A stretch of 25,349 nt of DNA, from IMG/VR virus record IMGVR_UViG_3300011335_000312, positions 1-25,349 of that record; one strand, given 5' to 3'. This stretch comes from a virus. Taxonomy: Duplodnaviria; Caudoviricetes. Under the pieces are notes generated by a model. The model did no database searches. It had not been told where the DNA came from and saw nothing but the letters and a program-made list of their open reading frames with translations. The position numbers were made by a program, and so were the translations under genes. Shown one piece after another: positions 4,151-22,829 of this stretch. Numbering within the stretch: position 1 is the stretch's first letter; each line of letters opens with the position of its first letter.

Positions 4151-4735
4151 TTAGTGTCCTTGAAAGAAGCGTTGTTGTCCCTGCTTGGTAGGATACGGAA
4201 CATCAACTGGAATCGGTAATTTGCCATGTGGATAGCAAACGAATTGGGGATATTCTTTTTCCACAACTCTGTAAAACTGGGCTTTAAGAGTTCTGTCATT
4301 CTTAATTGTATTCCATGGCATACCACCAAAATAGTCATCACTAATTTTAATAGCAATTACTTTTGGTAAATCTATCCATTTCCATCCAACTGTGCCATCG
4401 GGCATATACGGACCCAGCGGGTCAGTAATACCTTTTTCAGCCATTGTTCTGTATTCTTTAACAGCGTCCATGACTGCTTGTAAATTCATTTGCTCACGCT
4501 GAATATAAAACTTACCATCTTCTCTGCCAGTGGTAACTTTAATATTGCCTGTCTTGTTATAGTCGCTGCGAGTCCAATCGCCTTTCATTGCGTTGTATAA
4601 CTTGTCATTTTTTAATAACTTGTCTGCTACGCCATTGTGATTGGTAATTGTTCCGCCATGATCTTGTCTCCAGTAATCGTGATTTTTCTCTGGGTCAGTG
4701 TCATCTAAATATTCGGGTTGATTTATGTCTCTCAT
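4151..4735 (-). CDS. Conserved hypothetical phage protein following the capsid gene (194 aa)
   Basis: Long ORF filling the gap; ATG 5 nt after TATAAATA with no SD. IQREQ...WIDLP...EYPQF resembles the small post-capsid protein of aquatic podoviruses (from memory). Confidence 0.75.
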   Translation of the reverse strand: MRDINQPEYLDDTDPEKNHDYWRQDHGGTITNHNGVADKLLKNDKLYNAMKGDWTRSDYNKTGNIKVTTGREDGKFYIQREQMNLQAVMDAVKEYRTMAEKGITDPLGPYMPDGTVGWKWIDLPKVIAIKISDDYFGGMPWNTIKNDRTLKAQFYRVVEKEYPQFVCYPHGKLPIPVDVPYPTKQGQQRFFQGH

Positions 4736-4739
4736 AGTA

Positions 4740-4748
4740 TTATTTATA
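4740..4748 (-). promoter_or_regulatory. T4-late-type promoter TATAAATA(A); leaderless start
   Basis: Minus strand reads TG-TATAAATA-ATACT-ATG(4735), immediately after the capsid terminator. Confidence 0.75.
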
Positions 4749-4775
4749 CAAACAAAAGGCAGCCGAGGCTGCCTT
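4749..4775 (-). terminator. Rho-independent terminator after the major capsid gene
   Basis: Minus strand AAGGCAGC-CTCG-GCTGCCTT followed by TTGTTTG, 22 nt past the capsid stop. Confidence 0.8.
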
Positions 4776-4797
4776 AAGTTGATACTAAATCCTAATA

Positions 4798-6024
4798 TTA
4801 GGAAACAGAACCAGGTCCTGCGTTTACACGACGAACCAAGTTTGCACTACGTGGAGTAGTAACAATTGTGCTACCAGTGGTAATGTTATTTAACATACCA
4901 ATACCTGCTGGGTTGCGAACAATTAGTGTACCTTCCATAATGAACTGGTCTAATGAAGCGTCAGCTGAACTGAAAACTTCGTTATTTGGACCGAGGTCAC
5001 GTAATGATCCCCACTGCAACACGTCTTCGTTTAAGAAGTAAATGCTGTTAGTAGTACCGCTTTGATCCATAATCCATGAATCATACACTTCGTATGTGTA
5101 ACTAAAGTCACCTTCGTATGTTTGAATCGTGTCACCACGCTCAACGTTACGACGGTTAACTGATGTGTTACTGCTAACGATGTTATCACTGATAGTAGTT
5201 CTCAAACTTGTTGGAACAACCATAGTGCGGATTTTAGCATTGTAACGTTGTTCAGCAGTAGTTACCAATTGCTTGTATAACGTTGGGCTGAAAACTTGGT
5301 TTGCAAAACCACTACCATTACCTGTGTAGTAATAGTTACCGTTGGCTACAACGTATAGTGCGTTAACACCACTTGGGCTACCTGACAATTGACTTAAAGT
5401 TGTAGAACTAGAGTCACTGCTTGGGTTGTTATAGTTAGTTGTCAAACCACTTTCAGTACCACTGACGGTATTGAAAGATAGTGTGCCAGCATAACTTGCT
5501 AATGAACCCATACGACGACCTGAAGTGTTCTGGCTACCTGCTGTAGTTTGACTGTTACCAGTTGCACTACCGCTTTGACCTGAATATTGAGTTCCGATTT
5601 GGTCACTACGAACCAATTGTTGCTCAACGTCGAACATCAATTCGATTAGCTGTTTTACTTCCTGATATGCCTGGGGATCGCCACCAGATTGCATAACAGC
5701 ACGAGCAGTACCAGTGGCACCAATCGTAGTTTGGAAAATCTGCGTAAAGTTGTTTAGGTTATAACGCTGATTTGCTTCTGCATAAGTTGAACTAACACTT
5801 GCACCCTCTTGGACAGCATTAACTGCTGGTAGACGATAAATGTCGTCTGTCCATAAAGGTTGCGTAGAGTTAACCTTACGCTTTTTGCTCATACACATAT
5901 TGAGTACGGGCGTGTCATCTTTGACACGATTGGACACGTCGAGGTCCAAGTCTTTGACAACGATGTCAGTTGCAAACGCACCAGTACCATTGCCAATGTT
6001 TGTAGTTGAAATAAATCCTGCCAT
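4798..6024 (-). CDS. Major capsid protein (HK97 fold, SU10/DUF5309-like)
   Basis: DTPVLNM...WTDD...EG...NFTQIFQTTIGATGT...DVEQQL...RRMG...YEGDF...EGTLIVRNP pattern. Strong SD AAAGGAG; follows the scaffold; followed by a terminator. Confidence 0.9.
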   Translation of the reverse strand: MAGFISTTNIGNGTGAFATDIVVKDLDLDVSNRVKDDTPVLNMCMSKKRKVNSTQPLWTDDIYRLPAVNAVQEGASVSSTYAEANQRYNLNNFTQIFQTTIGATGTARAVMQSGGDPQAYQEVKQLIELMFDVEQQLVRSDQIGTQYSGQSGSATGNSQTTAGSQNTSGRRMGSLASYAGTLSFNTVSGTESGLTTNYNNPSSDSSSTTLSQLSGSPSGVNALYVVANGNYYYTGNGSGFANQVFSPTLYKQLVTTAEQRYNAKIRTMVVPTSLRTTISDNIVSSNTSVNRRNVERGDTIQTYEGDFSYTYEVYDSWIMDQSGTTNSIYFLNEDVLQWGSLRDLGPNNEVFSSADASLDQFIMEGTLIVRNPAGIGMLNNITTGSTIVTTPRSANLVRRVNAGPGSVS

Positions 6025-6042
6025 TTTTAGGCTCCTTTAAAA

Positions 6043-7194
6043 TTATCTACCACCTCTGCTCGCCTTCAATCTTTGAAGTTGAGCGACTAAGAGGTTGTCT
6101 GCGGCTTTTTTATCACCGCCTTTGGCTTGCTCACGAAGTTTGCTAATATCATCGCCTTGGTTTTTCGGTGTCGAACTACCCTTGCGTGATGTTAGTGCTG
6201 CCATAGATGATCCAGCGGATTTTGTAGTTGGCTTGTCTCTGTAGCGTAAACCGTCACGGACGAGACTTAAAAGTGCTTCGTCACTGCTGATTAGGTCTAT
6301 GTTAGGAACTCCAGGTATGATCTCGTCTTTAGCATTCTTCCAAAGTTTGCTAACCTTTTCACGAACTTCATTAAAGACATAATCGTTTTTCAACTCTTTG
6401 TCAGTAAATCCTTTACGTGCTGCTTCTAATCTCTCGGTTACTTGGTGAGCACGAACTTGTCTGAATTGGTCTACTGCAGGTTTCAACTGACCAATGGTCT
6501 GTTGTTGTTGCTGTATCCATCGCTCGTTCTGAGCCATACTCGCCTGTATCCTTGCTATCGCTGCAGGATCATCTGTTCTTGCCAACTGTTGCTGGAATGT
6601 CGTTTGATAATTTTGTGTTTTAACAATTTCATTATACGCTTCCTGTAACTTCGGTTCGACTGTAAATTCCATGGCTAAAGTTAAACCTTCTTGTCTGGCG
6701 TGTGTCTCATTGAGATACTCGTCAAACTCTGCTCGTTCTATCTTTAACTGCCTTGCATCTTCATGTATTGCTCCACCTTGACCTAATATTGCGGCTGCTT
6801 TTTTAGCATCAATAACTACTTCTTTGCCGTTCTTTAAGAACTTGAATTTAGCGTTGGGATTAGTCTCCGCAAATTCTACAAAGTCAATTAGTTCATCTGC
6901 ATTTGAATCACTACTATCAGTGCTTACCTCTTCAGGGGCATCTGCTTCGTCATCACTGCCATCACTATTATAATTTTCAGTGTCGTCAACTTCTGGCACA
7001 GCATCAATGCTGTCGTTTGCCACAGGGCTTGATGGTTGATCTGCCACCCCATCTACTCCTGTTGCAGTTGGTTTAGTAGCACTATTCTGATTACGCATGG
7101 CGGTCATTTTAGCGGCTATTGAGTCTAAACTCGGTACTGCGGCTGATTCAGTGACCGTGCTCTGTGGAGCATTAGGTATGATATCTGTTGTCAT
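6043..7194 (-). CDS. Capsid scaffolding protein
   Basis: Acidic disordered N-terminus, KFLKNGKEVVID motif, Q/E-rich coiled coil and a C-terminal helical hairpin (ISKLREQAKGGDKKAADNLL); directly upstream of the capsid gene; SD AAGGA. Confidence 0.8.
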   Translation of the reverse strand: MTTDIIPNAPQSTVTESAAVPSLDSIAAKMTAMRNQNSATKPTATGVDGVADQPSSPVANDSIDAVPEVDDTENYNSDGSDDEADAPEEVSTDSSDSNADELIDFVEFAETNPNAKFKFLKNGKEVVIDAKKAAAILGQGGAIHEDARQLKIERAEFDEYLNETHARQEGLTLAMEFTVEPKLQEAYNEIVKTQNYQTTFQQQLARTDDPAAIARIQASMAQNERWIQQQQQTIGQLKPAVDQFRQVRAHQVTERLEAARKGFTDKELKNDYVFNEVREKVSKLWKNAKDEIIPGVPNIDLISSDEALLSLVRDGLRYRDKPTTKSAGSSMAALTSRKGSSTPKNQGDDISKLREQAKGGDKKAADNLLVAQLQRLKASRGGR

Positions 7195-7206
7195 TTTAAT
7201 TTCCTT

Positions 7207-7548: not shown

Positions 7549-7553
7549 ATCTA

Positions 7554-7560
7554 TTATTTA
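7554..7560 (-). promoter_or_regulatory. TAAATAA late-type promoter; leaderless start
   Basis: Minus strand TAA(portal stop)-C-TAAATA-ATAGAT-ATG(7548); no SD. Confidence 0.7.
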
Positions 7561-7561
7561 G

Positions 7562-9847
7562 TTAACTATAAACTTTAGGTGTTCCTTGTGCTAACGCCAT
7601 ATAGTCTAATTGGCTTTCTGCATCAGTGCCAGCCATTTCTGCTTTAATCTGTTCTGCTCTGGTATCATCCAATGCCGCACTTGACAACTTCTGCTTGTCT
7701 TCTGGACTTGGTTCTTTGTTCTTCATTGCTTCAGCACCTGCTTGTATCATTGCCTGAATTTCTTCATCGCTGGGCAGATAACTATTACAGTCTTTGACAC
7801 CCAAAACATAAAGAGTGTCCGCAAAAGGCTTCTTGACCTTTTTATACACTTCTGGTGTTAGAGTGCCACTGGCTACCATAGCCTGAGTTGTAGCATATAA
7901 GTCTTGTTGGCACTTTTGAATAATCTGTAATCTACCCAATGAGTTTTCTTCACTCATCATACCCAATGCCAATGATATGTGTATTTGTTTTCGTTCGCAG
8001 AAGTTCATGTCGTCCCATGCCAAAAAGTCTAAATATTCTGCTTTCTTTTCAGGGTGGAATGTCTGTGCTAACTTCTTAACACCATAGTCGTCACCATACT
8101 GTATCAGTGTACGCCATACTAACCATAGTGCTTCTTTTAATCCTTCGGCAGCATTCTTAACAGTATTGTCTTGAATGATTTGGTTAGGTGTCAATGCCAT
8201 TTGTAGTTTGATACCTGAATTGCCAGGAGCCATAACTTCAGGATTGAATACATCTGTGGGTGTAGTCATACCAACCATGCTCATAGTATCTTGTTGGATA
8301 CGTGTCATAGCAGTTTCTAAAAACGCTAAATTACCGCTGGGTGGTGGAATCTGATATACGTCTTTGGCAGGATCGAATTTACTATCCAAAATAAAGATAG
8401 CACTTTCTCCGTCCTGCATCATTTCAAAATCCACTCTGTCAGGCTTAACACCGATACGTGGAGTTGCTGTTAGTAAACCCAGTTGAATTTCTGCTCTGGC
8501 GGCTGAAGTATTATACTCTTGCATAGGAATAACACTTTCACCTAAAGAGAATCCATAGAAGTTTCCTGGCAGTGGTTTTGGACACATGTTAGCCACAGGA
8601 ATAAATTCTACTTCTCTGGCACTAATAATGTAACTACCGCTATAGATAGTTTCTACCAGTTCTAATTCACCATCACCATCAATATCGTATCTGTTCCAAA
8701 CCGTGACGATGCTGACCTGACGACTATCTGGATCGGCACTGGCAGCACTACTAACGGGTATACCCATAATAGGCACACTATCTCTGGCGTGAATAGCCAA
8801 GTTGTTTAATACACTACCTGCTTGATACGCACCGCTTTGGTTGTATTCAGCATGTTTTCTAAATTGTTCTAAATTGATATCAGGATATAATTCTGTTGCT
8901 TCTTGTATGGTCATTGGGTCATAATACCCGCAGAATGGCTGATCTTTCATTTCAGGAACTGTGGGATCGCATACCCAGTAATGTTGGGCAATAGGATGGA
9001 ATTTAACGTTGATACTATAACCAGTTAGTTTGTATTTGGCTTTGTATATAGTGTTGCGTTTAATGGCAGTATTAAGAATTTCTTCTTGTCCTTCCATTTC
9101 TCCCTGTGCCATTTCACTTTGTTCCAAGACCATAGATTCTGGACTCATGTCATCTTCTTCTGTTTCGGCAAGTTGACTGATACGTGTGTCAATCATTTCC
9201 TGCGACATCATATCTTTTTGCTCACCGAATAACTGCTGAACTTCAGCCATTACTTTTTGCATGTCAACGCTGACTTGTCGCTTGCTTTGGCGTAGTGGGG
9301 TTAACCCTGCTTCAGCGGCTTGTTGTTCGAATGCTCTGAGTTGGTCTGTAGTGCCTGTTGTTTCTACATAACGCACTATCTGTTCTCTAACAGGCTTAAT
9401 CATCATCATGCCATTCTTGTGCATAGCAGCATCCATAATCCAACGCTCTAAAATAAAGTGCGGATCGTTCATTTGATTGACAACCTTTGACACCATGTCA
9501 GTGGCTTGTCTGGCTGCTGTTTCATCTTCTTCACTGTCGGCTACGAATTCAAAATTGATTTCGCCACCTGGCATTAATCCTTTGGCAATAACTGCTGTGG
9601 CATAATCAACCACTGGTTTTACAGTTGGGTGTATGTAGTCAATACCATTGACAGGTGCTGTACTTTCAGTAACAGCCAAGCACAAATAGTGATAATCGGT
9701 TGCTCTGTTTACAGCATTTTTAGTTCCAAGATAACGCAGATAGGATGCCATTTTTACATCCATTAAATTTTTCATTCTAACAAAATTAGAATTGAGTTTT
9801 TTATTCTTATTGATATCTTCGACTGGGATATTTTTAATATCGAGCAT
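7562..9847 (-). CDS. Portal protein (761 aa)
   Basis: DETAARQATDMV...WIMDAAMHKNGMM, WVCDP, YDIDGDGELEL and PLPGNFYGFSLGE motifs typical of P22/SU10-like portals; lies between terminase and scaffold. Confidence 0.9.
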   Translation of the reverse strand: MLDIKNIPVEDINKNKKLNSNFVRMKNLMDVKMASYLRYLGTKNAVNRATDYHYLCLAVTESTAPVNGIDYIHPTVKPVVDYATAVIAKGLMPGGEINFEFVADSEEDETAARQATDMVSKVVNQMNDPHFILERWIMDAAMHKNGMMMIKPVREQIVRYVETTGTTDQLRAFEQQAAEAGLTPLRQSKRQVSVDMQKVMAEVQQLFGEQKDMMSQEMIDTRISQLAETEEDDMSPESMVLEQSEMAQGEMEGQEEILNTAIKRNTIYKAKYKLTGYSINVKFHPIAQHYWVCDPTVPEMKDQPFCGYYDPMTIQEATELYPDINLEQFRKHAEYNQSGAYQAGSVLNNLAIHARDSVPIMGIPVSSAASADPDSRQVSIVTVWNRYDIDGDGELELVETIYSGSYIISAREVEFIPVANMCPKPLPGNFYGFSLGESVIPMQEYNTSAARAEIQLGLLTATPRIGVKPDRVDFEMMQDGESAIFILDSKFDPAKDVYQIPPPSGNLAFLETAMTRIQQDTMSMVGMTTPTDVFNPEVMAPGNSGIKLQMALTPNQIIQDNTVKNAAEGLKEALWLVWRTLIQYGDDYGVKKLAQTFHPEKKAEYLDFLAWDDMNFCERKQIHISLALGMMSEENSLGRLQIIQKCQQDLYATTQAMVASGTLTPEVYKKVKKPFADTLYVLGVKDCNSYLPSDEEIQAMIQAGAEAMKNKEPSPEDKQKLSSAALDDTRAEQIKAEMAGTDAESQLDYMALAQGTPKVYS

Positions 9848-9874
9848 ATTGGTAATTTACCTTTAATTTATCTA

Positions 9875-9881
9875 TTATTTA
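9875..9881 (-). promoter_or_regulatory. TAAATAA late-type promoter for the portal gene (leadered)
   Basis: CGC-TAAATA-ATAGATAAATTAAAGGTAAATTACCAAT-ATG(9847). Shares CTAAATAATAGAT with the 7549-7561 site and overlaps the stop of the 40-aa ORF. Confidence 0.65.
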
Positions 9882-10220: not shown

Positions 10221-10229
10221 TTCTGTTCC

Positions 10230-11846
10230 TTAATTTGGTGAGTATGTTTTTTTCCACGCTGGTTTATTCGTGTCATCATATTTAATATATCTTTCTCTGT
10301 GTGCTCGCATACGCTGTTGTGGTGTTCTATCATCCCAGGGTTCTGCGATGCCTTGTAATACCGCTATCAATGCGTATCGGCAACTGTCAATACAATCATC
10401 AGGGTCGCTGAATCTGCCTTTTTCATCAACGAAGTAGTTTTGTGCTTCTGTTAAGAAGTTAGTGCAGTTTTCATTAATATACAATGTGCCTGTTTCAAAC
10501 ATTTGTCGCATTTGGTTAATACCATAACTTTTATGATTAGTCTGCTTGCCATCAGCATCAGGTGGGTTCATAATAGCCTTTTCATACAAGTTTAATCCAT
10601 AGCCCTCAAATAGTTCACGTATACTGTTACTGCTCATAGTATACCTGCCTTTGGTTGACGCATCTGCTGGCAATACAATAGGTGTGCCAAATACTTCAGG
10701 TCTGAGCAGGTGATTGACATATTGTGTAGGTACTGCTTCTTCTATGCCTTGTATAACAATCTGTCTGTGTAAGTATGCCACTTTCTCGTGCGGCTCCCAA
10801 TACATTAGACTGATAACTGTTTTGTCGTTGACAAGTCCAAGGTCAAGTGCTATAACACGCTGAATGTTTGGCATTCTGTTAAAATCAACTTCACCTGTTT
10901 TGTATGTCACTGCTGTCCAATCACCTAACTGGAATACAGCACCTTTGCCCATTACGGGTTTACCCGCAATGCGTGCTTCACGCTCGTGCGGTAGATAATC
11001 TCGTTCTAACTGTCGTCTTGTTTCTTTTAACAGGAACGGCTGACCCCATGGATCATATTCAGGTACATCATCCCAACTTACTCGGATAAAGTTGTAGCCT
11101 TGTTCGTGGTTCCAGAACTTACTTACAAGTCCGTTTAATCCTTTAAGTGGAGTAAACGAACATAGAACTTTTCCTTGCGTAGTTGCTGTTCGAGTAACAA
11201 TCTCACTGAAGAAATCATCAGGCGGTTGTTCATCGAAGACTGCCAAATTAAGTTTAAAACCTTGTAATTGTCTAACCTCCTGCGTATAATTAGCAAATAA
11301 AAGATAACTATTGGCACCACTGACATGCTTAATCTCAACACCGATACAGTTGGCTCCATCATTTCGCATAGTATCGACAATGATACAACTGCGAGGAATA
11401 ACACCAGTTCCCAGGTTTTCAGTAATTTTAACATCTTGGCTTCCTAACAATTCGTTTTGTAGCACCAATGCTACCTGTGACCAGCCTTCGCCAGCCACCA
11501 TACAAGTTATTGGTGCTGTGAATCTATGTCCAACCCACCATTCAGGATATAATCCTGTTAGATGGCAAGCAGTTTCATAACAAGTACTTACTGTCTTACC
11601 AATCCTGTTAGCAGCCAATATGCCTCGTCTGCTGTGTTCGCCTGTGGCAAAGAATTTAAGTTGATGGTCAAATGGTCTAAAGTATTTTAAGTGATTAAAC
11701 TTCATATCTTCAGTTACACTAATAGCCAAATCCATGAGTTGTTCTTTTAGTTGACCGCTGAGATTACCCAGATTATCCATCTGTAAATCATACTTGTCCA
11801 CTGCCCAACGCAATGCTCTTGCCATTAATACATCTTGACCAATCAT
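10230..11846 (-). CDS. terL: Terminase large subunit
   Basis: PFDHQ adenine motif, Walker A AANRIGKT, Walker B LAVFDE, coupling motif FTP, nuclease acidic residues ALDLG and DDCIDSCRY. The ANRIGKT form resembles P22 gp2-like terminases. Confidence 0.97.
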   Translation of the reverse strand: MIGQDVLMARALRWAVDKYDLQMDNLGNLSGQLKEQLMDLAISVTEDMKFNHLKYFRPFDHQLKFFATGEHSRRGILAANRIGKTVSTCYETACHLTGLYPEWWVGHRFTAPITCMVAGEGWSQVALVLQNELLGSQDVKITENLGTGVIPRSCIIVDTMRNDGANCIGVEIKHVSGANSYLLFANYTQEVRQLQGFKLNLAVFDEQPPDDFFSEIVTRTATTQGKVLCSFTPLKGLNGLVSKFWNHEQGYNFIRVSWDDVPEYDPWGQPFLLKETRRQLERDYLPHEREARIAGKPVMGKGAVFQLGDWTAVTYKTGEVDFNRMPNIQRVIALDLGLVNDKTVISLMYWEPHEKVAYLHRQIVIQGIEEAVPTQYVNHLLRPEVFGTPIVLPADASTKGRYTMSSNSIRELFEGYGLNLYEKAIMNPPDADGKQTNHKSYGINQMRQMFETGTLYINENCTNFLTEAQNYFVDEKGRFSDPDDCIDSCRYALIAVLQGIAEPWDDRTPQQRMRAHRERYIKYDDTNKPAWKKTYSPN

Positions 11847-13002: not shown

Positions 13003-13009
13003 TTATTTA
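13003..13009 (-). promoter_or_regulatory. TAAATAA late-type promoter (leadered) for the 266-aa gene/terL operon
   Basis: TGC-TAAATA-AAAAC... in the gap between 13024 and 12953. Confidence 0.6.
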
Positions 13010-13329: not shown

Positions 13330-13640
13330 AGTTGATTTCCTTTTGTTGGTCCACGACCGAAGTTAAAACTTTCTTTGCCACGGTTAGGGAATTCTTTAGT
13401 GCTGCCATCACTGACTGCTTGACGCTTTTGTGGATGACTGCTACCAGAGATCATATCGCTACAATATGGCATACTTTTTCCGCCACCTGTAGGTCCACGC
13501 CCTTTGTTGATTAATGCATTGGGATTTGGACTTTCATATTGATTTCCTGAGAATTTATTTGAACCACGATTTACTCCATCGCCCTTCATTCCTGCGAAAT
13601 CTAAACTGTGATCGCTTTGTGTAATACTATTTGGTTTCAT
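13326..13640 (-). CDS. Basic G/N/S-rich protein (104 aa)
   Basis: ATGA-coupled at both ends; SD AAAGGA; contains INKGRGPTGGGK and NFGRGPTKGNQ. Confidence 0.75.
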   Translation of the reverse strand: MKPNSITQSDHSLDFAGMKGDGVNRGSNKFSGNQYESPNPNALINKGRGPTGGGKSMPYCSDMISGSSHPQKRQAVSDGSTKEFPNRGKESFNFGRGPTKGNQL

Positions 13641-13780
13641 TTTGCTTTTCCTTTTTTAGCGGCTGCTCTTTTTTCGCTATAAGCGATTGCCACTGCCTGC
13701 TTTTGGGGCTTGCCTGCGGCTATTTCTCGTTTAACATTCTTTGTGAATGCTTGTTTACTTGTTGATTTAATTAACGGCAT
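13637..13780 (-). CDS. Small basic phage protein, 47 aa (not in the ORF track)
   Basis: MPLIKSTSKQAFTKNVKREIAAGKPQKQAVAIAYSEKRAAAKKGKAK matches the widespread MPL...GKPQKQAVAIA small phage protein pattern. ATG 5 nt after TAAATA; ATGA overlap with the next gene. Confidence 0.85.
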   Translation of the reverse strand: MPLIKSTSKQAFTKNVKREIAAGKPQKQAVAIAYSEKRAAAKKGKAK

Positions 13781-13784: not shown

Positions 13785-13791
13785 TTATTTA
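13785..13791 (-). promoter_or_regulatory. TAAATAA late-type promoter; leaderless start
   Basis: GGC-TAAATA-ATAGT-ATG(13780). Confidence 0.7.
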
Positions 13792-13795: not shown

Positions 13796-14311
13796 TTAGT
13801 ATTGTCCATAAGTCTTTGTCGGGACTTGATTTTGTGTGTTTTGCATATTTTGTAACATGTCCATTGGTTGAATCATGCCTTTGCCACCACCGTATCCACC
13901 GCCACCACCAATAGGTTGAATTAAACCTTTACCACCACCAAAACCTGGGTTAGGTGTTGGATTAGGATTAAATGGCTGTGGTTGACGCAATTTTAATATG
14001 CCGCCACCAGCCTGACTTTCTGCTACTTTTTGAGCAGGAGTTTGTGGCATCATACCACTTAAATCTAATTTTGGTGGACCGCCTTGATAATTATTATCTG
14101 GGATTAATCCTCTGGCAAAATTTCCGCCTGCTTGTCCTATTGCAGGTAACGCAGTTCTACCAAAATCAGTGGTTGATTGTTGTCCAGCACTGGTCATTTG
14201 GTTTTGTATAGTATCGCCTAAACCATTAGTAATTTGGTTCATTGGACCAGATTTGCCACCACCATAGCCGCCATCTTGTTGTCCACCTTGATTCATTGTA
14301 CTATAACTCAT
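13796..14311 (-). CDS. G/Q/P/M-rich, probably disordered protein (171 aa)
   Basis: ATGA-coupled to the upstream gene; SD AAGGA; three G(Y/F)GGGK repeats. Confidence 0.75.
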   Translation of the reverse strand: MSYSTMNQGGQQDGGYGGGKSGPMNQITNGLGDTIQNQMTSAGQQSTTDFGRTALPAIGQAGGNFARGLIPDNNYQGGPPKLDLSGMMPQTPAQKVAESQAGGGILKLRQPQPFNPNPTPNPGFGGGKGLIQPIGGGGGYGGGKGMIQPMDMLQNMQNTQNQVPTKTYGQY

Positions 14312-14688
14312 TCTGCGTCCTTGGAATTTAGTGCAGTTAATTTTGCCAGTGCATCTGCAAATGCCTGTTGTTTGGCGGCTACTACATCGGAACTATCTGT
14401 GACTTCAATCTTGGCTAATGTGTTCATCACTTTACTTAAAATAAGATTGTGATATTTGATTACAGCCTGACTATCGCCTCTGGCTCGGCAGTTTAAGAAG
14501 TCTTCGATTAATAATTCTTCGTAATCTTTGCCACTTGTTTGAGCATATATATTTTCCAATAAATGTTTGATCGTGACATTATCCTTGCTGCCTTTGGGTC
14601 TGCCAGCATTAGGACGATATCCACCCTTGGCGTTTATACCTTTGGGATTTGGATTTGCTTTTGTTGGAACAATTTTCTTTGTTGTCAT
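14308..14688 (-). CDS. Terminase small subunit-like protein (126 aa); start revised to 14688
   Basis: MTTKKIVP...GGYRPNAGRPKGSKD is an N-terminal motif common in TerS-like proteins, followed by helices and a KIEVT strand. ATG 14688 lies 5 nt after TATAAATA; the track's extension runs through the promoter region. Confidence 0.6.
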   Translation of the reverse strand: MTTKKIVPTKANPNPKGINAKGGYRPNAGRPKGSKDNVTIKHLLENIYAQTSGKDYEELLIEDFLNCRARGDSQAVIKYHNLILSKVMNTLAKIEVTDSSDVVAAKQQAFADALAKLTALNSKDAE

Positions 14689-14692: not shown

Positions 14693-14701
14693 TTATTTAT
14701 A
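14693..14701 (-). promoter_or_regulatory. TATAAATA(A) late-type promoter; leaderless start
   Basis: TG-TATAAATA-ATATT-ATG(14688); nearly identical context to the 4740-4748 site. Confidence 0.75.
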
Positions 14702-14706
14702 CAGAT

Positions 14707-14712
14707 TAAATA
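14707..14712 (+). promoter_or_regulatory. TAAATA late-type promoter for the only + strand gene
   Basis: AT-TAAATA-GTAGAGCA-ATG(14721)-AAAGGA-ACTGCA-ATG(14736); back-to-back with the minus-strand box. Confidence 0.6.
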
Positions 14713-14720: not shown

Positions 14721-15221
14721 ATGAAAGGAACTGCAATGAAACAATACACTTGGCGACCAGCCAACGGCACTGATGTCGGTGCTATAGTCGCACTGGCTGA
14801 AAGCCACTTCCAAACTGAAATTGATAACATCTTTACTCCCAGCCCCTTGGCTTACAGTAGGAATATAACCTATGCGGTTGTTAATCAATTCTTCTCTCCT
14901 AATACTGAACTCCTTTACGTCGTTTACGATAATGATAACCTCATTGGTTATACTTGGGCTAAAGCCTGTGAATATGCACCTTGGAGCGATGATCCAATGG
15001 TAAGCGTTCGCATGGTGCATCTTGATCTACACTTAACAAGTAGAGACAGAGTGCGATTAATACAAGATATGATGAAATTGTGGGAAACTTTTGCATCATC
15101 CATCAATGTCAAAATAATCTGTAGTACTACCATGCGTCGTGATCAAACTGTTTTTCTTAAATTACATGAACGCAACGGCTACGATGTACGTGGCAGTTAC
15201 GCATATAAAAAGTTAGTCTAA
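14721..15221 (+). CDS. GNAT-fold (acetyltransferase-like) protein; start may be 14736
   Basis: WRPANGTDVGAIVAL, VVYDNDNLIGY and LHERNGY match the GNAT pattern. Motif A (R/QxxGxG) is not present. The in-frame ATG 14736 has SD AAAGGA. Confidence 0.65.
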   Translation: MKGTAMKQYTWRPANGTDVGAIVALAESHFQTEIDNIFTPSPLAYSRNITYAVVNQFFSPNTELLYVVYDNDNLIGYTWAKACEYAPWSDDPMVSVRMVHLDLHLTSRDRVRLIQDMMKLWETFASSINVKIICSTTMRRDQTVFLKLHERNGYDVRGSYAYKKLV

Positions 15222-15644
15222 TGTTGACCTCAACATCCATATGCTCTTATTCAAATCTAAAATCTGTTCTTGAGCATAGTTGGCTATCTCATCGTGCTCA
15301 TCTTCTTCTGCTACTTCGTTTAATTCTTTATAACAATCGCATAACTGTAGTAAATCAGCCAAGACCATGTTTAACAACTCATCTGCCGTACCTTCTATTG
15401 GGTCTGTGGGCAAATCTGAGTTGCTGATAATCTCACTTAAGTCTGTGGGCATAAACTCTTGTAAGGTGCGTAGTAGTTCACCTATAATATCTATCTGTGC
15501 TTGTCTGCGTTCATACACGCCTTGAAGCAACTTGTGGTCGCTTCTAAAACTTCTGCCAGTGACATTTGCATGTGCGGCATGGCTTCTGTAGTATGCTACG
15601 AAGTTGTCATAAAAGACTTGTGTTAGTTGGTCGGTTGTGTTCAT
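15213..15644 (-). CDS. dps: Dps/ferritin-like protein (143 aa)
   Basis: HANVTGRSFRSDH...Y...DIIGE corresponds to Dps HWNVxGxxFxxLH...DxxAE; C-terminal KSIWMLRS is typical of Dps. Confidence 0.85.
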   Translation of the reverse strand: MNTTDQLTQVFYDNFVAYYRSHAAHANVTGRSFRSDHKLLQGVYERRQAQIDIIGELLRTLQEFMPTDLSEIISNSDLPTDPIEGTADELLNMVLADLLQLCDCYKELNEVAEEDEHDEIANYAQEQILDLNKSIWMLRSTLD

Positions 15645-15648: not shown

Positions 15649-15655
15649 TTATTTA
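15649..15655 (-). promoter_or_regulatory. TAAATAA late-type promoter; leaderless dps start
   Basis: GAG-TAAATA-ACATT-ATG(15644); its TAA is the stop of the 921-aa gene. Confidence 0.65.
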
Positions 15656-18418: not shown

Positions 18419-18419
18419 G

Positions 18420-20783
18420 TTAGAATTTTATTTCGATTGGATTTTCTTTAGTTCCAACTTCTTTTTTGGATTCTTTTTTCTTTTCAGTTTCGCTCATTGG
18501 CTTTAAATTGTATTTTGGCGGCAATCCAAGTTTTTCTCTGCGAATATCAATCATACGCATAACGTTTTCGTTAAATTCTTTGGATGCTTTCTTAAATTCA
18601 TTTTCACTTTGGCTTAATTGCATACGATTTAACGCATCTGTGGCTGCTGCACCTTCTTTTTCAGTGATCTGACCACCGCCACGCAAACTTTCAAATGCTT
18701 GACGGAAGGTTTCACCTTTAATCTGGTTAAATGCACTAATAAAATCTGCTTCTTTAGTTCCAGCAATAGGTTTTTCAAGTAATCCAAAACCAAGACCAGC
18801 ACCTTTAAATCCAACAGTATCTCTAAATGCTTTTCCATCACCAATTTTAAATAAGTTTTCAACTTGAGTAATAAGTTGGTCAGCCTGACTTTCAACCTGT
18901 GGTTGAGTGGCTTTAACTTTACCCATGTCTGTGCCAATAACTTCGGCTGCTGCTGCTTTTGTTTTTTGGTCAATTTCACGTTGTCCTGGGAATGTTCCAG
19001 CAGCACCAGCAGAGGCAGGGGCACCAGCAGCACCTGTAGCCACTGGAGCAACAGCACCAGCAGGAGCACCAACAGAAGCACCAGCAGCACCTGTAGCCAC
19101 TGGAGCAACAGCACCAGCAGGAGCACCAACAGAAGCACCAGCAGTTGTAGGAACTGTTCCTGTAACTGGTAATCTGCCTGCTAATATAGTGGCTTTAACA
19201 GTTGGATCTAATGGACCAAATTTACCTTCACTGTCACTGACAATTTTAGCCAATGTTTCAGCACTGGCAGTGGGTCCAGCATATGCCAATTTGTTTTGTA
19301 ATTCTTGTTGTTGGATAATGTTTTTAGTATTAATATCACTGCCAATACCAAACGGACGAAGATTAGAACTTGGTCCTTTGTATTTTTTACCTTGATTATC
19401 AACTAACTCAATACCCTGCGGTGTTGTGCGTTCATAATAAACTTCACCAGTAGTTGTATCTTGCATTTTACCAGTGTGTGTTTGAGCACCTTTTTGCACT
19501 GAAGCATATTGAGCACCAGCGATTAATTCTTGTGGGGTTAATTCTTTTCCTGTAGTAGCATTAATGCCTGATATAGGTGTACCATTTTCAGCCATTTTAA
19601 TCATAACTGGCTGCCCATCAACCTGTGTCATCATTTCTTTACCAATACCTAACTTGGCAATTTCAGCACCTTTAGAATTTTCCATGCCTAACAATCCAAA
19701 CAATATGGCTTTAACATAACTACCACCTGTTGTTTTTTCACGTAATGCTTTAGCAACAGCATTTTCATCCATAGTTTTAATCTGTGCTTCTGCTTTAACA
19801 AAACCTGCCTCTTGTGCTAATGTATCACTGACTTGTTTTTTAACATGCTTCTGTAAATTTTCAGGAGTGTTTTTGTCATATGCAAAAGCCAATCTATCTT
19901 TTGGATTATCTGGTAAACTTAAATATTGTTGATACGGATCATCAGGTAAATTTAATGGTTGTTGTTTTGCCTCAAATGCGGCAACTTGATTGTTGATAAC
20001 TGAATCGGGTTGTGGCACTGATGCACCACCAGTAAAAGGTGCCGCTCCTGGACGATTACGATCATATGTTGGTATACCGCCTTCATAAGCTGCATTGCCT
20101 GGGCGGTTGCGATCATATGGTTCAAATCCACTGCTGCCTACATTGGCTGGTGGTTGTGGAACTGTGCCTGCTTCTGCACTTGGAATAACGCTGCCAACTA
20201 CATTACCTAACTTTTGAAGATAACCTTGTGTTTCTCTGGGCAATTGACTGACATTCATTTGTCCTTGATTAGCACGAATATTTTGATCTACTCTGCCAGG
20301 ACCTGCATTATACGCAGCCGCTGCTTTGGCTTTGTCTCCGCCAAATTTTTGCAGCATGGCTTGATAATATTCAGCACCAACTCTGTTATACTCTTCTGGA
20401 CTTTCATCTCTGGCAGGAGTAATACCAAAACCAGGATTTCTTGCCGTTGCTGGCATAACTTGATTACGATACATAGCACCTGCAGGACTTTGAATAGGTC
20501 TGCCTTGTGCGTCAAAATCTCTGTTGCCGCTTTCAATCTGTTGCATACGGCTAAACGTGTCATCGGGACTTGCAGGACCAGTAACAGTTGGCGTGTTAGG
20601 ATTCATAGAACTCAAACTTTGCGGAGTTCCTTTAATTGTCATTTCCTGAGTGCCATCAGGGTTAGTTGTTATAGTTTGTTTAACTGGAGTGTCTGCTTGT
20701 TCAGCATCCATTCTACGTTTGCGTTCTTCTTCGCTTTCGTATTCTCCGATTACATTGCCAAGGGCATCATATTCATAAGCCAT
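18420..20783 (-). CDS. Internal virion/ejection protein with a soluble lytic transglycosylase domain (787 aa)
   Basis: SLT motifs IESG (Glu84), AGAMYRNQVMPATA, AAYNAGPGRV and LPRETQGY at aa ~77-192. C-terminal AFESLRGGGQITEKEG motif recalled from podovirus ejection proteins. Confidence 0.85.
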   Translation of the reverse strand: MAYEYDALGNVIGEYESEEERKRRMDAEQADTPVKQTITTNPDGTQEMTIKGTPQSLSSMNPNTPTVTGPASPDDTFSRMQQIESGNRDFDAQGRPIQSPAGAMYRNQVMPATARNPGFGITPARDESPEEYNRVGAEYYQAMLQKFGGDKAKAAAAYNAGPGRVDQNIRANQGQMNVSQLPRETQGYLQKLGNVVGSVIPSAEAGTVPQPPANVGSSGFEPYDRNRPGNAAYEGGIPTYDRNRPGAAPFTGGASVPQPDSVINNQVAAFEAKQQPLNLPDDPYQQYLSLPDNPKDRLAFAYDKNTPENLQKHVKKQVSDTLAQEAGFVKAEAQIKTMDENAVAKALREKTTGGSYVKAILFGLLGMENSKGAEIAKLGIGKEMMTQVDGQPVMIKMAENGTPISGINATTGKELTPQELIAGAQYASVQKGAQTHTGKMQDTTTGEVYYERTTPQGIELVDNQGKKYKGPSSNLRPFGIGSDINTKNIIQQQELQNKLAYAGPTASAETLAKIVSDSEGKFGPLDPTVKATILAGRLPVTGTVPTTAGASVGAPAGAVAPVATGAAGASVGAPAGAVAPVATGAAGAPASAGAAGTFPGQREIDQKTKAAAAEVIGTDMGKVKATQPQVESQADQLITQVENLFKIGDGKAFRDTVGFKGAGLGFGLLEKPIAGTKEADFISAFNQIKGETFRQAFESLRGGGQITEKEGAAATDALNRMQLSQSENEFKKASKEFNENVMRMIDIRREKLGLPPKYNLKPMSETEKKKESKKEVGTKENPIEIKF
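19021..19144. repeat. Perfect 57-bp tandem duplication (~2.2 copies), in frame
   Basis: Unit gcaccagcagcacctgtagccactggagcaacagcaccagcaggagcaccaacagaa at 19021-19077 and 19078-19134, plus 10 nt; encodes AGASVGAPAGAVAPVATGA twice. Confidence 0.95.
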
Positions 20784-20784
20784 A

Positions 20785-21525
20785 TTAGAACCCTTTCATA
20801 ACACGGGTTATATCAGCACCATCAAAACCAAATTTACTGCTTGATGTATTACTGCCCTGAGTACCACGGAAGTCAGGGTTGTAACTACCTTGCGGTGTTC
20901 CAAATATAACTGAAGCGTATTGATTGTATAGTTGTTGTGGAGTCATAGCCGCACTAACACCTTGTCCAGCCGCACCCAAGGCTTGTCCAATATTACTGGC
21001 ACCCTGCGTTGCCAAGAATTGACCTACACCAGCACGTTGATTTGCAATTTGTGCTTGAACATCAGCGGCAGTTTTAGCCATTAACGCTTGGTTGGCTCCA
21101 GCCGTTTGTCTGCCTGCCAAGGCTTGTCTGGCACTACCTAAATTACCTGCACCGCCAAATCCTGCTTCTTGATTAGCAATATTTTGAGCATATTGACTTT
21201 GAGCAGGGGCTAATGCGTTTCTAATTTGATTGGCTTCGTAGTCAGGATTGAATAAACTTTCTAATCCACTGATACCTGTGCGTAATGCACTTTCGCCTGT
21301 TTCGCCAAGACTACCCTGTGCTTGTCTGGCTACACCAGCAAGGTTTTGAGCAGCGTTTAATACACCAGGAGCATTTTGGTTGTATACGTCTGTGGCTCCA
21401 CGAACAGCAGTCTCATAGGTAGGCTTAATAGTGCCTGTAAAGAAATCTGTTTGTGCTTTTATCTGTGCTTTTTGCTCGTCTGTTAGCGTAGGCGATGTTG
21501 TTGAACTTGATTTACCGAAACTCAT
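20785..21525 (-). CDS. Small ejection/DNA-transfer protein (246 aa)
   Basis: MSFGKSSSTT start, A/Q/G-rich helices, NPDY and GGAGNLGSAR motifs typical of podovirus DNA-transfer proteins; SD AAAGGA. Confidence 0.7.
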   Translation of the reverse strand: MSFGKSSSTTSPTLTDEQKAQIKAQTDFFTGTIKPTYETAVRGATDVYNQNAPGVLNAAQNLAGVARQAQGSLGETGESALRTGISGLESLFNPDYEANQIRNALAPAQSQYAQNIANQEAGFGGAGNLGSARQALAGRQTAGANQALMAKTAADVQAQIANQRAGVGQFLATQGASNIGQALGAAGQGVSAAMTPQQLYNQYASVIFGTPQGSYNPDFRGTQGSNTSSSKFGFDGADITRVMKGF

Positions 21526-21546
21526 TGGTTGTTTCCTTTGTATGTA

Positions 21547-21553
21547 TTATTTA
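21547..21553 (-). promoter_or_regulatory. TAAATAA late-type promoter for the ejection operon (leadered)
   Basis: CGC-TAAATA-ATACATACAAAGGAAACAACCA-ATG(21525). Confidence 0.65.
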
Positions 21554-21568
21554 GCGTAGTAATTAACA

Positions 21569-22798
21569 TCAATCACCACCACCTTGATTTTGCTGTTGTT
21601 GCATTACATATTCATATTGACTTTGTATGCGTTGTGCAGTTTCTGTATCGCCTCTGGCAATTGCTTCTTGTTGTTGTCTGGCAATATCAGGACCCATTGC
21701 TGCCGCAACTTGGTTGTATTGAACATTATTACTATAATCTACATTTTGATTGCCTGTATTAGGATTGCCTGTGTTTGGTGTACCTTGTGCATTAATAGTT
21801 GGCATTTGATAACTGTTAGTAGCACTGGGAACAACCATACTGCGTGGATCATAGGCTTCCATTCGCTGTGCGTTAGGCACCGCAGGTCCAGTGGTAATAT
21901 TCTTACCTGCAATAATATCATTAATCTGTGCACCAGTTAAACCACGAGCAAGTTGTTGTAATCCCCATGGCGTTTCACTGCCTGCGGCTTGATTGTATTG
22001 TTTGGCATTAAAATCAGGACCAACCTGAAAACCTTTACTGCCCCAGTTATATTTGCTTTGTGCAGGATCAAACGTTTTGTAAAAATCTGTGGGTGCTATA
22101 AAGCCTGGATTTAATCCCATGCCACGTTGCTGTGGCTGTGGTGCTACAGGTGGAACATATACAGGCGGTATTACCTGCGGTGGAACTACTGGTGGTGTTA
22201 CAACTGGTGGAATTACAGGCGGTAACTCTGGTGGTATTACAGGCGGCAATACAACAGGAGTTTCTGGAGGAACTACAGGAGGAACATAAGGCGGTATTAC
22301 AGGCGGCAACACTGGCGGCAACACGGGTGGAACAACAGGCGGTTCTTCTACAGGAGGAACTGGTTGTAAAATATCAGGTGCTTCAATAAGTGGTGGATTA
22401 TAAGGCGGTAATTCAATTGGTGGTGGCAATGGTATAACAGGACGTTCTGTAACAGGGCGAGTATCTGTAATAACCATTGTAGGCATTTCTGTTACTGGTT
22501 GTTCAGGAACAGGTAATAAAATATTAGGCGATTCAATAAGTGGTGGATTATATGGCGGTAGTGTAATCTCAGGTCCCGCAGGAATAACTGGACGTTCTGC
22601 TACTGGGCGTTTATCTGTGATAGTAATTGTACCCATGTCAGGAATGTCAGGATCAGGTGCTACTGGTCCTAGACCATCAGGATATACACCATCGGGAGTT
22701 GCACCTTCTCTGTTGTAATCAAAATTATCACCAAAGTCATAATCTGCGTCAACATCTTGGTCAAACGTGCCCCAACTGTAATCGTCATAAAAAGCCAT
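21569..22798 (-). CDS. Proline-rich repetitive protein (409 aa), probably virion-associated
   Basis: Acidic/aromatic N-terminus, duplicated 50-aa unit, long PPV(I/L/V) run and Q-rich C-terminus; SD AAGGA. Confidence 0.75.
   Translation of the reverse strand: MAFYDDYSWGTFDQDVDADYDFGDNFDYNREGATPDGVYPDGLGPVAPDPDIPDMGTITITDKRPVAERPVIPAGPEITLPPYNPPLIESPNILLPVPEQPVTEMPTMVITDTRPVTERPVIPLPPPIELPPYNPPLIEAPDILQPVPPVEEPPVVPPVLPPVLPPVIPPYVPPVVPPETPVVLPPVIPPELPPVIPPVVTPPVVPPQVIPPVYVPPVAPQPQQRGMGLNPGFIAPTDFYKTFDPAQSKYNWGSKGFQVGPDFNAKQYNQAAGSETPWGLQQLARGLTGAQINDIIAGKNITTGPAVPNAQRMEAYDPRSMVVPSATNSYQMPTINAQGTPNTGNPNTGNQNVDYSNNVQYNQVAAAMGPDIARQQQEAIARGDTETAQRIQSQYEYVMQQQQNQGGGD
22100..22640. repeat. 150-nt-period duplication plus PPVx tetrapeptide array
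   Basis: ttcaataagtggtggattata occurs at 22382-22402 and 22532-22552; repeated acaggcgg/ggtgg units at about 22140-22350. Confidence 0.8.
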
Positions 22799-22822
22799 TA
22801 TATGTTATCCTTGTTCATTGTG

Positions 22823-22829
22823 TTATTTA
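22823..22829 (-). promoter_or_regulatory. TAAATAA late-type promoter
   Basis: CAA-TAAATA-ACACA-ATG(22818); its TAA is the stop of the 290-aa gene. Confidence 0.6.

What the first reader, a model, noticed from the sequence alone, without database searches (positions are those of the whole stretch)
4735..22829. Podovirus-type genome wired with T4-like late promoters: candidate helper-dependent phage that borrows late transcription
Seen: TAAATAA in nine minus-strand gene junctions (4740, 7554, 9875, 13003, 13785, 14693, 15649, 21547, 22823) and TAAATA before the only plus-strand gene (14707). Two are the full TATAAATA. I see no conserved -35 element and no long T7-type promoter. Established: TATAAATA without a -35 is the T4 late promoter, read by host RNAP with phage sigma gp55, co-activator gp33 and sliding clamp gp45; podoviruses do not normally use it. 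Seen: no sigma, RNAP, clamp or replication gene in 25 kb, yet the head, tail and ejection sets are essentially complete. Inference: this phage either carries its own gp55-like factor off-window or exploits the late machinery of a co-infecting T4-like or jumbo phage. The latter would reverse the usual satellite logic, with own virion but borrowed transcription. Caveat: the DNA is AT-rich and three boxes overlap TAA stops.
Basis: partly seen in the sequence, partly recalled or inferred. Interest (0 to 1): 0.9.

Follow-up and report, generated by a model that had tools for sequence, protein, structure and literature searches.

The report
Small phages borrowing jumbo-phage late sigma
This is part of a small (33-40 kb in complete relatives) uncultured phage that builds its own particle but has a T4-type late-promoter box (TAAATA) in front of many of its genes, while no relative examined carries a recognisable factor to read that box, so it likely borrows the factor from a co-infecting giant phage, which would make it a bacterial counterpart of the virophages that exploit giant viruses.

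Summary
All ten boxes are real. TAAATA is not enriched window-wide but sits before 10 of 20 gene starts (1.65 expected). In 21 relatives (5 complete) it lies 4-6 nt before an ATG without Shine-Dalgarno (55 of 57) or 17-29 nt before one, mostly with it. There is no -35: the T4 late-promoter geometry. A sister clade with ordinary regulatory genes lacks it (18/1123 vs 237/1071 starts). No gp55-type sigma was found in 35 small-phage records; jumbo controls were found. No polymerase, integrase or endolysin was recognised; only some relatives carry a primase-helicase. Relatives share with gp55-bearing PA5oct/Atu_ph07-like jumbo phages a small gene, tail-fibre DNA patches and a ~390-nt structured RNA unknown to Rfam. 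A second, unrelated 29-31 kb siphovirus-like clade shows the same wiring. Best reading (0.65): full-virion satellites that use a T4-related helper's late sigma, most likely a jumbo's. Main rival: an unrecognised activator of their own. No host, transcript start or co-infection data were obtained, so dependence is inferred.

The parts
4741..4748 (-). TATAAATA box, 5 nt before the ATG of the 194-aa gene (predicted leaderless); follows a hairpin and T-run after the capsid gene
   Evidence: box before this gene in 20 of 22 genomes at 4-7 nt
7555..7560 (-). TAAATA box, 6 nt before the 113-aa gene that precedes scaffold and capsid
   Evidence: 15 of 22 genomes
9876..9881 (-). TAAATA box, 28 nt before the portal gene
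   Evidence: 20 of 22 genomes at 20-36 nt
13004..13009 (-). TAAATA box, 50 nt before the 266-aa gene that heads the terminase unit
   Evidence: 11 of 20 genomes
13786..13791 (-). TAAATA box, 5 nt before a 47-aa ORF (13637-13780, phrog_2423) (predicted leaderless)
   Evidence: 11 of 11 genomes
14694..14701 (-). TATAAATA box, 5 nt before the 126-aa gene (14308-14688); back to back with the plus-strand box
   Evidence: 12 of 20 genomes at 4-6 nt
14707..14712 (+). TAAATA box before the acetyltransferase-like gene (8 nt to ATG 14721, or 23 nt to ATG 14736, which has an AAGGA leader)
   Evidence: 12 of 18 genomes
15650..15655 (-). TAAATA box on the upstream stop codon, 5 nt before the Dps/ferritin-like gene
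   Evidence: 6 of 22 genomes
21548..21553 (-). TAAATA box, 22 nt before the 246-aa putative ejection-protein gene, with AAGGA leader
   Evidence: 20 of 20 genomes at 19-26 nt
22824..22829 (-). TAAATA box on the upstream stop codon, 25 nt before the 409-aa gene
   Evidence: 12 of 16 genomes
4798..6024 (-). Major capsid protein, SU10-like
   Evidence: PF17236 E 5.9e-33; phrog_1328
6043..7194 (-). Likely scaffolding protein (position between portal unit and capsid; no family hit)
   Evidence: inference; conserved in 23 of 23 records
7562..9847 (-). Portal protein, SU10-like
   Evidence: PF23899 E 4.4e-46; phrog_1216
10230..11846 (-). Terminase large subunit
   Evidence: PF03237, PF17289; phrog_2
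2951..4147 (-). Virion structural protein, likely adaptor/tail tubular A
   Evidence: phrog_2941; role inferred
23699..25297 (-). Virion structural protein, likely nozzle/tail tubular B (5' end may be cut by the window end)
   Evidence: phrog_3287 E 2.5e-20; role inferred
18420..20783 (-). Ejection-type protein with lytic transglycosylase (SLT) domain
   Evidence: PF01464 E 2.5e-9; phrog_342, phrog_2534
3..2941 (-). Tail fibre genes (464-2941 and the start of 3-443)
   Evidence: phrog_25788 for 3-443; 464-2941 by position and homology
15213..15644 (-). Dps/ferritin-like protein: in 22 of 22 clade records, absent from sister MW202484, also in 12 of 80 siphovirus-like loci

Best explanation
The window is the virion module of a widespread clade of 33-40 kb podovirus-like phages with a TAAATA box in front of many genes and no recognisable sigma factor, and these phages likely depend on a co-infecting T4-related phage, most likely a PA5oct/Atu_ph07-like jumbo, whose gp55-type sigma would read the boxes. 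Shown: the box, its two spacing classes, the lack of a -35, its restriction to this clade, and the absence of gp55 homologues from complete genomes. Inferred: the box is the -11 to -6 core of a late promoter, so +1 falls on the ATG for leaderless genes or starts a short SD leader. Inferred: the phage enters with its own tail and ejection proteins and can express a few early genes from sigma70-like promoters. When the helper's gp55 loads onto host RNA polymerase it would also fire the small phage's promoters in trans, switching on virion genes and, where present, the Prim-Pol/helicase unit. Inferred, weaker: DNA polymerase and lysis are also borrowed, since none was recognised, and the HNH-like genes may interfere with the helper or start replication.
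For: Promoter: 4-11 of 17-29 upstream windows per genome against 0.4-3.1 expected, also in members of 48-51% GC. Of 161 sites, 57 lie at 4-6 nt (40 at exactly 5) and 91 at 17-29 nt; 55 of 57 short-class starts lack an SD, 58 of 91 long-class starts have one, and 135 of 161 sites are not on a stop. The commonest preceding pair, AC or GC, is the Aeh1 variant of the gp55 promoter (PMC2988020, passages). Control: 237/1071 vs 18/1123 in the sister clade, separated with SH support 100; MW202484 of that clade has Cro, Erf, SSB, RusA and a chitinase-type endolysin. No own reader: phrog_12791 and phrog_234 match 0 of 22 clade records and 5 of 8 jumbo contigs; an 8-sequence HMM finds only the three jumbo controls among 32,730 six-frame pieces and ORFs; a 62-sequence HMM matches 0 of 35 small records and 2 of 2 controls. 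No early gene is universal apart from a mixed HNH-like set (17 of 21 genomes). Links to jumbos: an 88-aa gene in 12 of 21 relatives matches only 15 of 50,697 phage records, all PA5oct-like, Atu_ph07, Phosso or SCTP-2. PA5oct and Atu_ph07 encode a gp55-like protein and have TAAATA upstream of many genes; complete jumbo G023 has 19 sites at exactly 5 nt. A structured RNA is shared by G011, siphovirus-like genomes and gp55-bearing G032 and G034. Tail-fibre DNA patches of 69-85% identity link G006/7/8/20 with jumbo G034. All 5 Prim-Pol genomes have TAAATA and no sigma70-like match upstream of that gene. Second clade: 171/949 starts, 61 at 4-5 nt, no gp55 in 12,089 frames. gp55 alone gives basal, accurately initiated transcription, best on supercoiled DNA (PMC2988020, passages); jumbo CBB has gp55-like but no detected gp33/gp45, with late motif ATAAATA (PMC5259590 section 17).
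Against: No direct evidence of dependence: no isolate, host, co-abundance or transcript start. Most early ORFs have no family, so a non-homologous activator cannot be excluded; one genome (G015) has a weak hit to Q-like and late-activator profiles (E 0.003-0.007) and two have a weak HTH hit. The base before the box differs: C 48%/A 33% here against A 60-68% in PA5oct, Atu_ph07, G023 and 80 jumbo loci, so the jumbos sampled may not be the helper. In the tree of the shared 88-aa gene the jumbo copies form one clade (97/89) with the small-phage copies outside it, which does not show recent transfer. One accessory gene has cyanophage best hits, and the AAA gene matches 1,299 records. The shared RNA is in only 1 of 22 podovirus-type genomes. 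In T4, full late transcription needs a clamp loaded on the same DNA and is coupled to replication (PMC2988020). An obligate satellite needs co-entry or persistence, yet no integrase was recognised and the clade is abundant (283 capsid-gene stretches). An earlier unchecked scan note on a similar phage (e1-5326346) saw no sign of helper need.
Confidence: 0.65

Rival explanations
1. The phages are autonomous and encode their own late activator, unrelated in sequence to gp55 or too diverged to detect, that makes host RNA polymerase read TAAATA.
For: Many early ORFs lack any family. Sigma70-like promoters precede some early genes, some overlapping a TAAATA. A ~100-aa family occurs in 10 of 10 siphovirus-like and 4 of 23 podovirus-like genomes and, among 120 listed homologues, only on contigs up to 38 kb. 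Weak Q-like/late-activator hit in G015. The virion set is complete and the clade is abundant.
Against: No early family is shared by all complete genomes except a mixed HNH-like set, absent from G015, G016, G018 and G021. The ~100-aa family folds confidently (pLDDT 92.9) with only weak likeness to HNH nucleases such as PacI and colicin DNases, not to a sigma. Two unrelated virion lineages would need to reach the exact gp55 spacing without gp55. Polymerase and endolysin are also unrecognised.
Confidence: 0.23
2. A host factor reads the box: sigma70 on an AT-rich site, or a chromosomal gp55-like sigma in an uncultured host.
For: The host is unknown: no terminase relative in the GTDB scan. gp55-like genes occur in 22 loci of GTDB genomes.
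Against: All 22 loci are on MAG contigs, and 21 have ORFs matching jumbo-phage proteins, most with several, so they look like binned phage DNA. With +1 on the ATG the box lacks the A at -11 that sigma70 needs (recalled consensus). The same genomes use ordinary TTGAC/TATAAT promoters elsewhere, and the sister clade lacks the box.
Confidence: 0.07
3. The box is not a promoter but a by-product of AT-rich junctions, tandem stop codons or a translation signal.
For: The window-wide count is at or below chance; 26 of 161 sites overlap a stop codon.
Against: Enrichment over shuffles of the same windows, strand bias, a sharp 5-nt spacing, loss of the SD exactly in that class, 135 of 161 sites off stops, and absence from the sister clade.
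Confidence: 0.04

Closest known systems
T4 late promoters (TATAAATA; gp55, gp33, gp45) and the ATAAATA late motif of Rak2/CBB/GAP32-like jumbo phages
   Same: TAAATA core about one turn above the inferred start, AT-rich downstream, no -35 (PMC2988020 and PMC7892883 passages; PMC5259590 section 17). The (A/G)C-TAAATA form equals the Aeh1 variant.
   Different: Here the genome holding the boxes encodes no detectable gp55 or gp45; about a third of the boxes give predicted leaderless mRNA; the virion is podovirus-like (SU10-type capsid and portal).
Virophages (Sputnik, Mavirus, Guarani)
   Same: Small dsDNA virus with its own capsid whose genes, including replication genes in Guarani, carry the late promoter of a giant helper (PMC6723459, passages).
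   Different: Bacterial host, tailed HK97-type virion, bacterial RNAP with a phage sigma rather than a viral factory; dependence not demonstrated here.
Satellite phages with their own capsid: MiniFlayer, MulchRoom, Ando, cf-PICIs, Aci01-2-Phanie
   Same: Encode head and packaging genes, lack key replication genes, depend on a virulent helper; MiniFlayer has no integrase (PMC10690885 and PMC13587820, passages).
   Different: Those lack a full tail or lysis set and are smaller (Ando 13 kb); the word promoter does not occur in either paper's main text. This clade has tail, fibres and ejection proteins, 33-40 kb genomes, and helper-type late promoters. Phanie was seen only as cited in other papers.
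P4-P2 system
   Same: A helper late activator (P2 Ogr) can switch on satellite late promoters (recalled, not from a call).
   Different: P4 takes the helper's virion proteins, integrates, and encodes its own activator delta (recalled); here the virion is the phage's own and no activator or integrase was found.
Podoviridae sp. ctfne034 (MW202484) and its IMG/VR clade
   Same: Homologous capsid (58.7%), portal, terminase and several small genes, in similar order.
   Different: 40-45 kb, with Cro, Erf, SSB, RusA and an endolysin, and no TAAATA wiring.

Membership tests
T4-type (gp55-read) late promoter | TATAAATA-like box upstream of late genes, above chance | tested here: met
   The core TAAATA is met; full TATAAATA only at about 12% of sites, AC/GC before the core being commoner.
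T4-type (gp55-read) late promoter | No conserved -35, AT-rich stretch downstream | tested here: met
   at most 0.13 bits at 13-45 nt upstream; about 90% A/T at 5-6 nt below the box.
T4-type (gp55-read) late promoter | Transcript start 5-6 nt below the box | tested here: inconclusive
   Only indirect: ATG at 4-6 nt without SD in 55 of 57. The one RNA run held only contigs.
T4-type (gp55-read) late promoter | Transcription requires gp55 | not testable with these tools
   Needs a reporter or in vitro assay.
T4-related phage (self-sufficient late system) | Encodes gp55 | tested here: not met
   0 of 22; 0 of 35.
T4-related phage (self-sufficient late system) | Encodes gp45 clamp and gp33 | tested here: inconclusive
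   phrog_223 matched 0 of 31 records, jumbos included, with no positive control in that search; gp33 not searched separately, and no such hit.
Satellite virus (own virion, helper needed for multiplication) | Encodes virion proteins | tested here: met
   Capsid, portal, terminase, tail and ejection genes.
Satellite virus (own virion, helper needed for multiplication) | Lacks key replication or expression genes | tested here: met
   No DNA polymerase, sigma, RNAP or endolysin hit among 195 of 196 representative ORFs; Prim-Pol in 5 of 21 genomes only.
Satellite virus (own virion, helper needed for multiplication) | Cannot propagate without a helper | not testable with these tools
   No isolate or host.
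PICI / cf-PICI / PLE / P4 | Integrase and chromosomal residence | tested here: not met
   No integrase hit; no close terminase relative in GTDB genomes (close relatives only).
PICI / cf-PICI / PLE / P4 | Depends on helper for tail or capsid proteins | tested here: not met
   Tail-type, fibre and ejection genes present.
T7-like phages with their own RNA polymerase | Single-subunit RNAP and long phage promoter | tested here: not met
   No RNAP hit and no ORF cluster of that kind outside virion genes; no conserved extension of the motif.

The most novel reading that the evidence does not exclude
Aquatic PA5oct/Atu_ph07-like jumbo phages are parasitised by a guild of bacterial virophages: at least two unrelated lineages (33-40 kb podovirus-like, 29-31 kb siphovirus-like) that keep a complete virion but have given up late transcription control, polymerase and lysis, tune their promoters to the jumbo's gp55, copy its tail-fibre parts to reach the same host, and in some members carry the jumbo's ~390-nt structured RNA as a decoy or replication signal.
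Probability: 0.45. Interest if true: 0.92.

Novelty: new variant of a known kind. Interest (0 to 1): 0.8.

Why it matters
If true, hundreds of uncultured phage contigs now counted as ordinary lytic podoviruses and siphoviruses (283 and about 820 matching stretches in IMG/VR) are parasites of giant phages. That changes how their abundance and their effect on hosts are read. It would also extend the virophage way of life to tailed bacterial viruses. Even under the main rival, a non-gp55 factor reading T4-type promoters would be new.

Tried and rejected
Window-wide motif counts: no enrichment; only the positional test is informative. RNA: one freshwater metatranscriptome held 6% of sampled words; it is kept as contigs, with scattered low-depth pieces mostly of relatives, so no start or strand can be read. 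Host: no terminase relative in GTDB genomes. ESM Atlas gave nothing for the 266-aa protein or the 188-aa protein beside the holin-like gene. Rfam has no match for the shared RNA; I considered RNase P, group I/II intron and HEARO likeness from memory and dropped them, as none was supported by a call. The RNA as a universal origin of the podovirus clade is rejected: found in 1 of 22 genomes and not in PA5oct, Atu_ph07 or G023. The 88-aa gene tree has few columns and long branches and does not give a direction of transfer. The gp45 search had no positive control. The ~100-aa shared protein has no PDB sequence match and no Foldseek match at E<=0.001; the wider structure search was not run. A filter-free run of the 62-sequence gp55 profile could not be done; one search uses a first-look filter. 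ORFs were called with a simple script, so short or overlapping genes may be missed; six-frame searches cover this for gp55 only. ORFs over 700-800 aa and some short singletons were not family-scanned. Ten literature searches found no report of this clade or of a phage satellite using T4 late promoters; the library lacks most subscription papers, and no supplements were read (CBB Table S7 and PA5oct Table S3 could bear on the helper motif).
Full report
Observation. Counted over the whole window they are unremarkable: TAAATAA 11 against 8.7 expected, TAAATA 17 against 28.2, TATAAATA 2 against 2.3. Counted by position they are not: 10 of 20 sense windows of 60 nt before gene starts hold the box, against 1.65 expected from shuffles of those windows (maximum 5 of 200), and only one sense copy lies in 20,478 coding bases. 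Five boxes end 5-6 nt before an ATG; the others lie 8 (or 23), 22, 25, 28 and 50 nt upstream. Two boxes overlap an in-frame stop; I could not find the third. The 24 ORFs scanned give an SU10-like capsid and portal, terminase, two tail-type structural proteins, an SLT ejection protein, a tail fibre, an acetyltransferase and a Dps-like protein, and no transcription or replication family. The record is the window alone, 71% complete by CheckV.

The clade. The capsid protein found 283 related stretches in IMG/VR. I fetched 21 long records whole; five have terminal repeats (33.9-38.5 kb) and a sixth (G045, 39.0 kb) came later. All 21 show the box before shared genes: 4-11 of 17-29 windows against 0.4-3.1 expected, including members of 48-51% GC. 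It is nearly fixed before the portal (20 of 22), the 194-aa gene (20 of 22) and the 246-aa gene (20 of 20). Of 161 sites, 57 lie 4-6 nt before the ATG (40 at exactly 5) and 91 at 17-29 nt; there is no upstream conservation, and the DNA just downstream is AT-rich. The short class lacks a Shine-Dalgarno in 55 of 57 cases, the long class has one in 58 of 91, and 135 of 161 sites are off stop codons. T4 late promoters are an 8-bp TATA box one turn above the start, AT-rich below, with no -35, and Aeromonas phage Aeh1 has a/gC in place of TA (PMC2988020, passages); AC and GC are the commonest pairs here. I infer that +1 falls on the ATG in the short class, giving leaderless mRNA. The control is the sister clade of MW202484 (58.7% capsid identity), annotated with Cro, Erf, SSB, RusA and a chitinase: 18 of 1,123 starts with no spacing peak, against 237 of 1,071. 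The two clades are separated with SH support 100 in a tree of 49 rows, a subsample of 156 capsid sequences.

No reader in the genome. The late-sigma profiles phrog_12791 and phrog_234 match 0 of 22 clade records and 5 of 8 jumbo contigs. An 8-sequence HMM run without filters over 32,730 six-frame pieces and control ORFs finds only the three jumbo proteins. A 62-sequence profile matches 0 of 35 small-phage records and both jumbo controls. PHROG scans of 195 of 196 representative non-core ORFs and Pfam scans of 143 ORFs gave Prim-Pol (5 of 21 genomes), SF3-type helicases, HNH and GIY-YIG nucleases, methyl- and glycosyltransferases, but no sigma, RNAP, DNA polymerase, integrase or endolysin. The sister clade's endolysin finds only itself. 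Against this, most early ORFs have no family, G015 has a weak hit to Q-like and late-activator profiles (E 0.003-0.007), and two genomes have a weak HTH hit. The 4-8 kb early region differs almost wholly between genomes; the only near-universal component is a mixed HNH-like set in 17 of 21. In all five Prim-Pol genomes TAAATA, and no sigma70-like match, lies in the 1.5-2 kb above that gene, although in G012 the nearest copies appear to be inside a coding repeat. Ordinary TTGAC/TATAAT promoters do precede other early genes, some overlapping a TAAATA.

Who could read it. An 88-aa gene present in 12 of 21 relatives (a weak 13th) matches 15 of 50,697 phage records, all PA5oct-like, Atu_ph07, Phosso or SCTP-2. 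About 4,700 IMG/VR stretches match its jumbo form, on contigs up to 415 kb. PA5oct and Atu_ph07 encode a gp55-like protein and carry TAAATA before many genes; complete jumbo G023 has 19 sites at exactly 5 nt. The related jumbo CBB has a gp55-like sigma, no detected gp33 or gp45, and late motif ATAAATA (PMC5259590 section 17). gp55 alone supports basal transcription, best on supercoiled DNA, while full T4 activation needs a clamp on the same DNA (PMC2988020). A clamp-independent sigma would be easier to borrow; this is inference. G006, G007, G008 and G020 share tail-fibre DNA patches of 69-85% identity over about 70-240 nt with gp55-bearing G034. G011 carries a ~340-nt version of a non-coding element that sits after a GIY-YIG-like gene in jumbo contigs (about 430 stretches). 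It has no Rfam match, 22 of 83 predicted pairs show compensatory change in ten related copies, and it is also in G032 and G034. Results against a simple pairing: the base before the box is C 48%/A 33% here but A 60-68% in the jumbos sampled; the jumbo copies of the 88-aa gene form their own clade; one accessory gene is closest to cyanophages; the RNA is in only 1 of 22 podovirus-type genomes.

A second lineage. Two short contigs carrying the RNA proved to be siphovirus-like. Their terminase finds about 820 stretches; 171 of 949 starts carry the box, 61 at 4-5 nt, in 73 of 80 loci; the RNA is full length in 12 of 80 loci and partial in 4. Ten genomes of 28.9-31.4 kb (four with terminal repeats) have no gp55 match, and representatives from eight of them give no polymerase, primase, helicase, sigma or endolysin. 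They share early genes and the Dps-like gene with the podovirus clade. Their one universal early protein (10 of 10; 4 of 23 podovirus-type) folds at pLDDT 92.9 with only weak likeness to HNH nucleases. Two unrelated virion modules with the same promoter geometry, the same missing functions and the same jumbo-linked parts are most simply explained by a shared external reader.

Host factor. No terminase relative was found in GTDB genomes. The 22 gp55-like loci there are all on MAG contigs, 21 with ORFs matching jumbo proteins, so no chromosomal gp55 was seen.

Comparison and novelty. The promoters work like T4 late promoters, but the phage fails the membership test for a self-sufficient T4-type system. 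It meets two of three marks of a satellite virus; the third, dependence, cannot be tested here. MiniFlayer, MulchRoom and Ando encode heads but not a full tail, and neither paper's main text mentions promoters (PMC10690885, PMC13587820; passages). EPIPs lack tail and lysis genes (PMC12822802, part 1 of 2). Virophages are the closest functional match: own capsid, helper late promoter (PMC6723459, passages). P2 Ogr acting on P4 is a recalled precedent for helper-driven satellite promoters. PMC7892883, PMC3121705 and PMC7318152 were read in passages (the last also section 5); the PA5oct passages report only sigma70-type motifs. Ten searches found no description of this clade. Earlier unchecked scan notes report the same pattern in an E. 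coli island, a temperate prophage and another freshwater phage, with differing verdicts on helper need; I did not test those genomes.

Verdict. The promoter call is close to certain on sequence grounds. Helper-supplied gp55 is the best mechanism at 0.65, with a PA5oct/Atu_ph07-like jumbo the leading but unproven helper; an unrecognised activator of its own is the main rival at 0.23. New variant of a known kind; interest 0.8.

Noticed in passing
L095:13593-13930 (G011); L287:1580-1950 (G027); L290-L409: A ~390-nt structured non-coding element with long-range helices and compensatory changes, after a GIY-YIG-like gene in aquatic jumbo phages (about 430 IMG/VR stretches) and in small phages; no Rfam match; function unknown.
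   Followed up: partly
L490 (G030), L491 (G031), L510-L589, G035-G044: A 29-31 kb siphovirus-like clade (about 820 stretches) with the same TAAATA wiring, no gp55, and no recognised replication or lysis genes.
   Followed up: partly
window 14694-14712: Two back-to-back boxes 5 nt apart drive divergent genes (126-aa and acetyltransferase-like); the divergent gene pair recurs in most relatives.
   Followed up: partly
window 4748-4790: GC-rich hairpin with a T-run right after the capsid gene, directly upstream of the TATAAATA box: a likely terminator-promoter cassette.
   Followed up: no
L095:14037-14474, L102:10480-10857, L113:3357-3761: One subgroup of the HNH-like early genes has Gln where intact homologues have the first conserved His, suggesting an inactive DNA-binding form.
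   Followed up: no
window 15213-15644: Dps-like gene in every podovirus-clade record, absent from the sister MW202484, and present in 12 of 80 siphovirus-like loci.
   Followed up: no
L084:5233-5303; L102:9928-10002: Single tRNA genes between the early region and the tail gene in G002 and G017.
   Followed up: no
L102:13674-14240 and homologues: A 120-189 aa protein of no known family lies next to the holin-like gene in 8 genomes, where an endolysin would be expected; no Pfam, PHROG or Atlas hit.
   Followed up: partly
L590-L611: gp55-like genes of jumbo type in 22 GTDB MAG contigs of unrelated taxa, probably binned phage DNA; two are labelled Polynucleobacter.
   Followed up: partly
G023 (L270-L286): Complete 328-kb jumbo with 19 TAAATA sites exactly 5 nt before an ATG and no phrog_223 clamp match.
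   Followed up: partly
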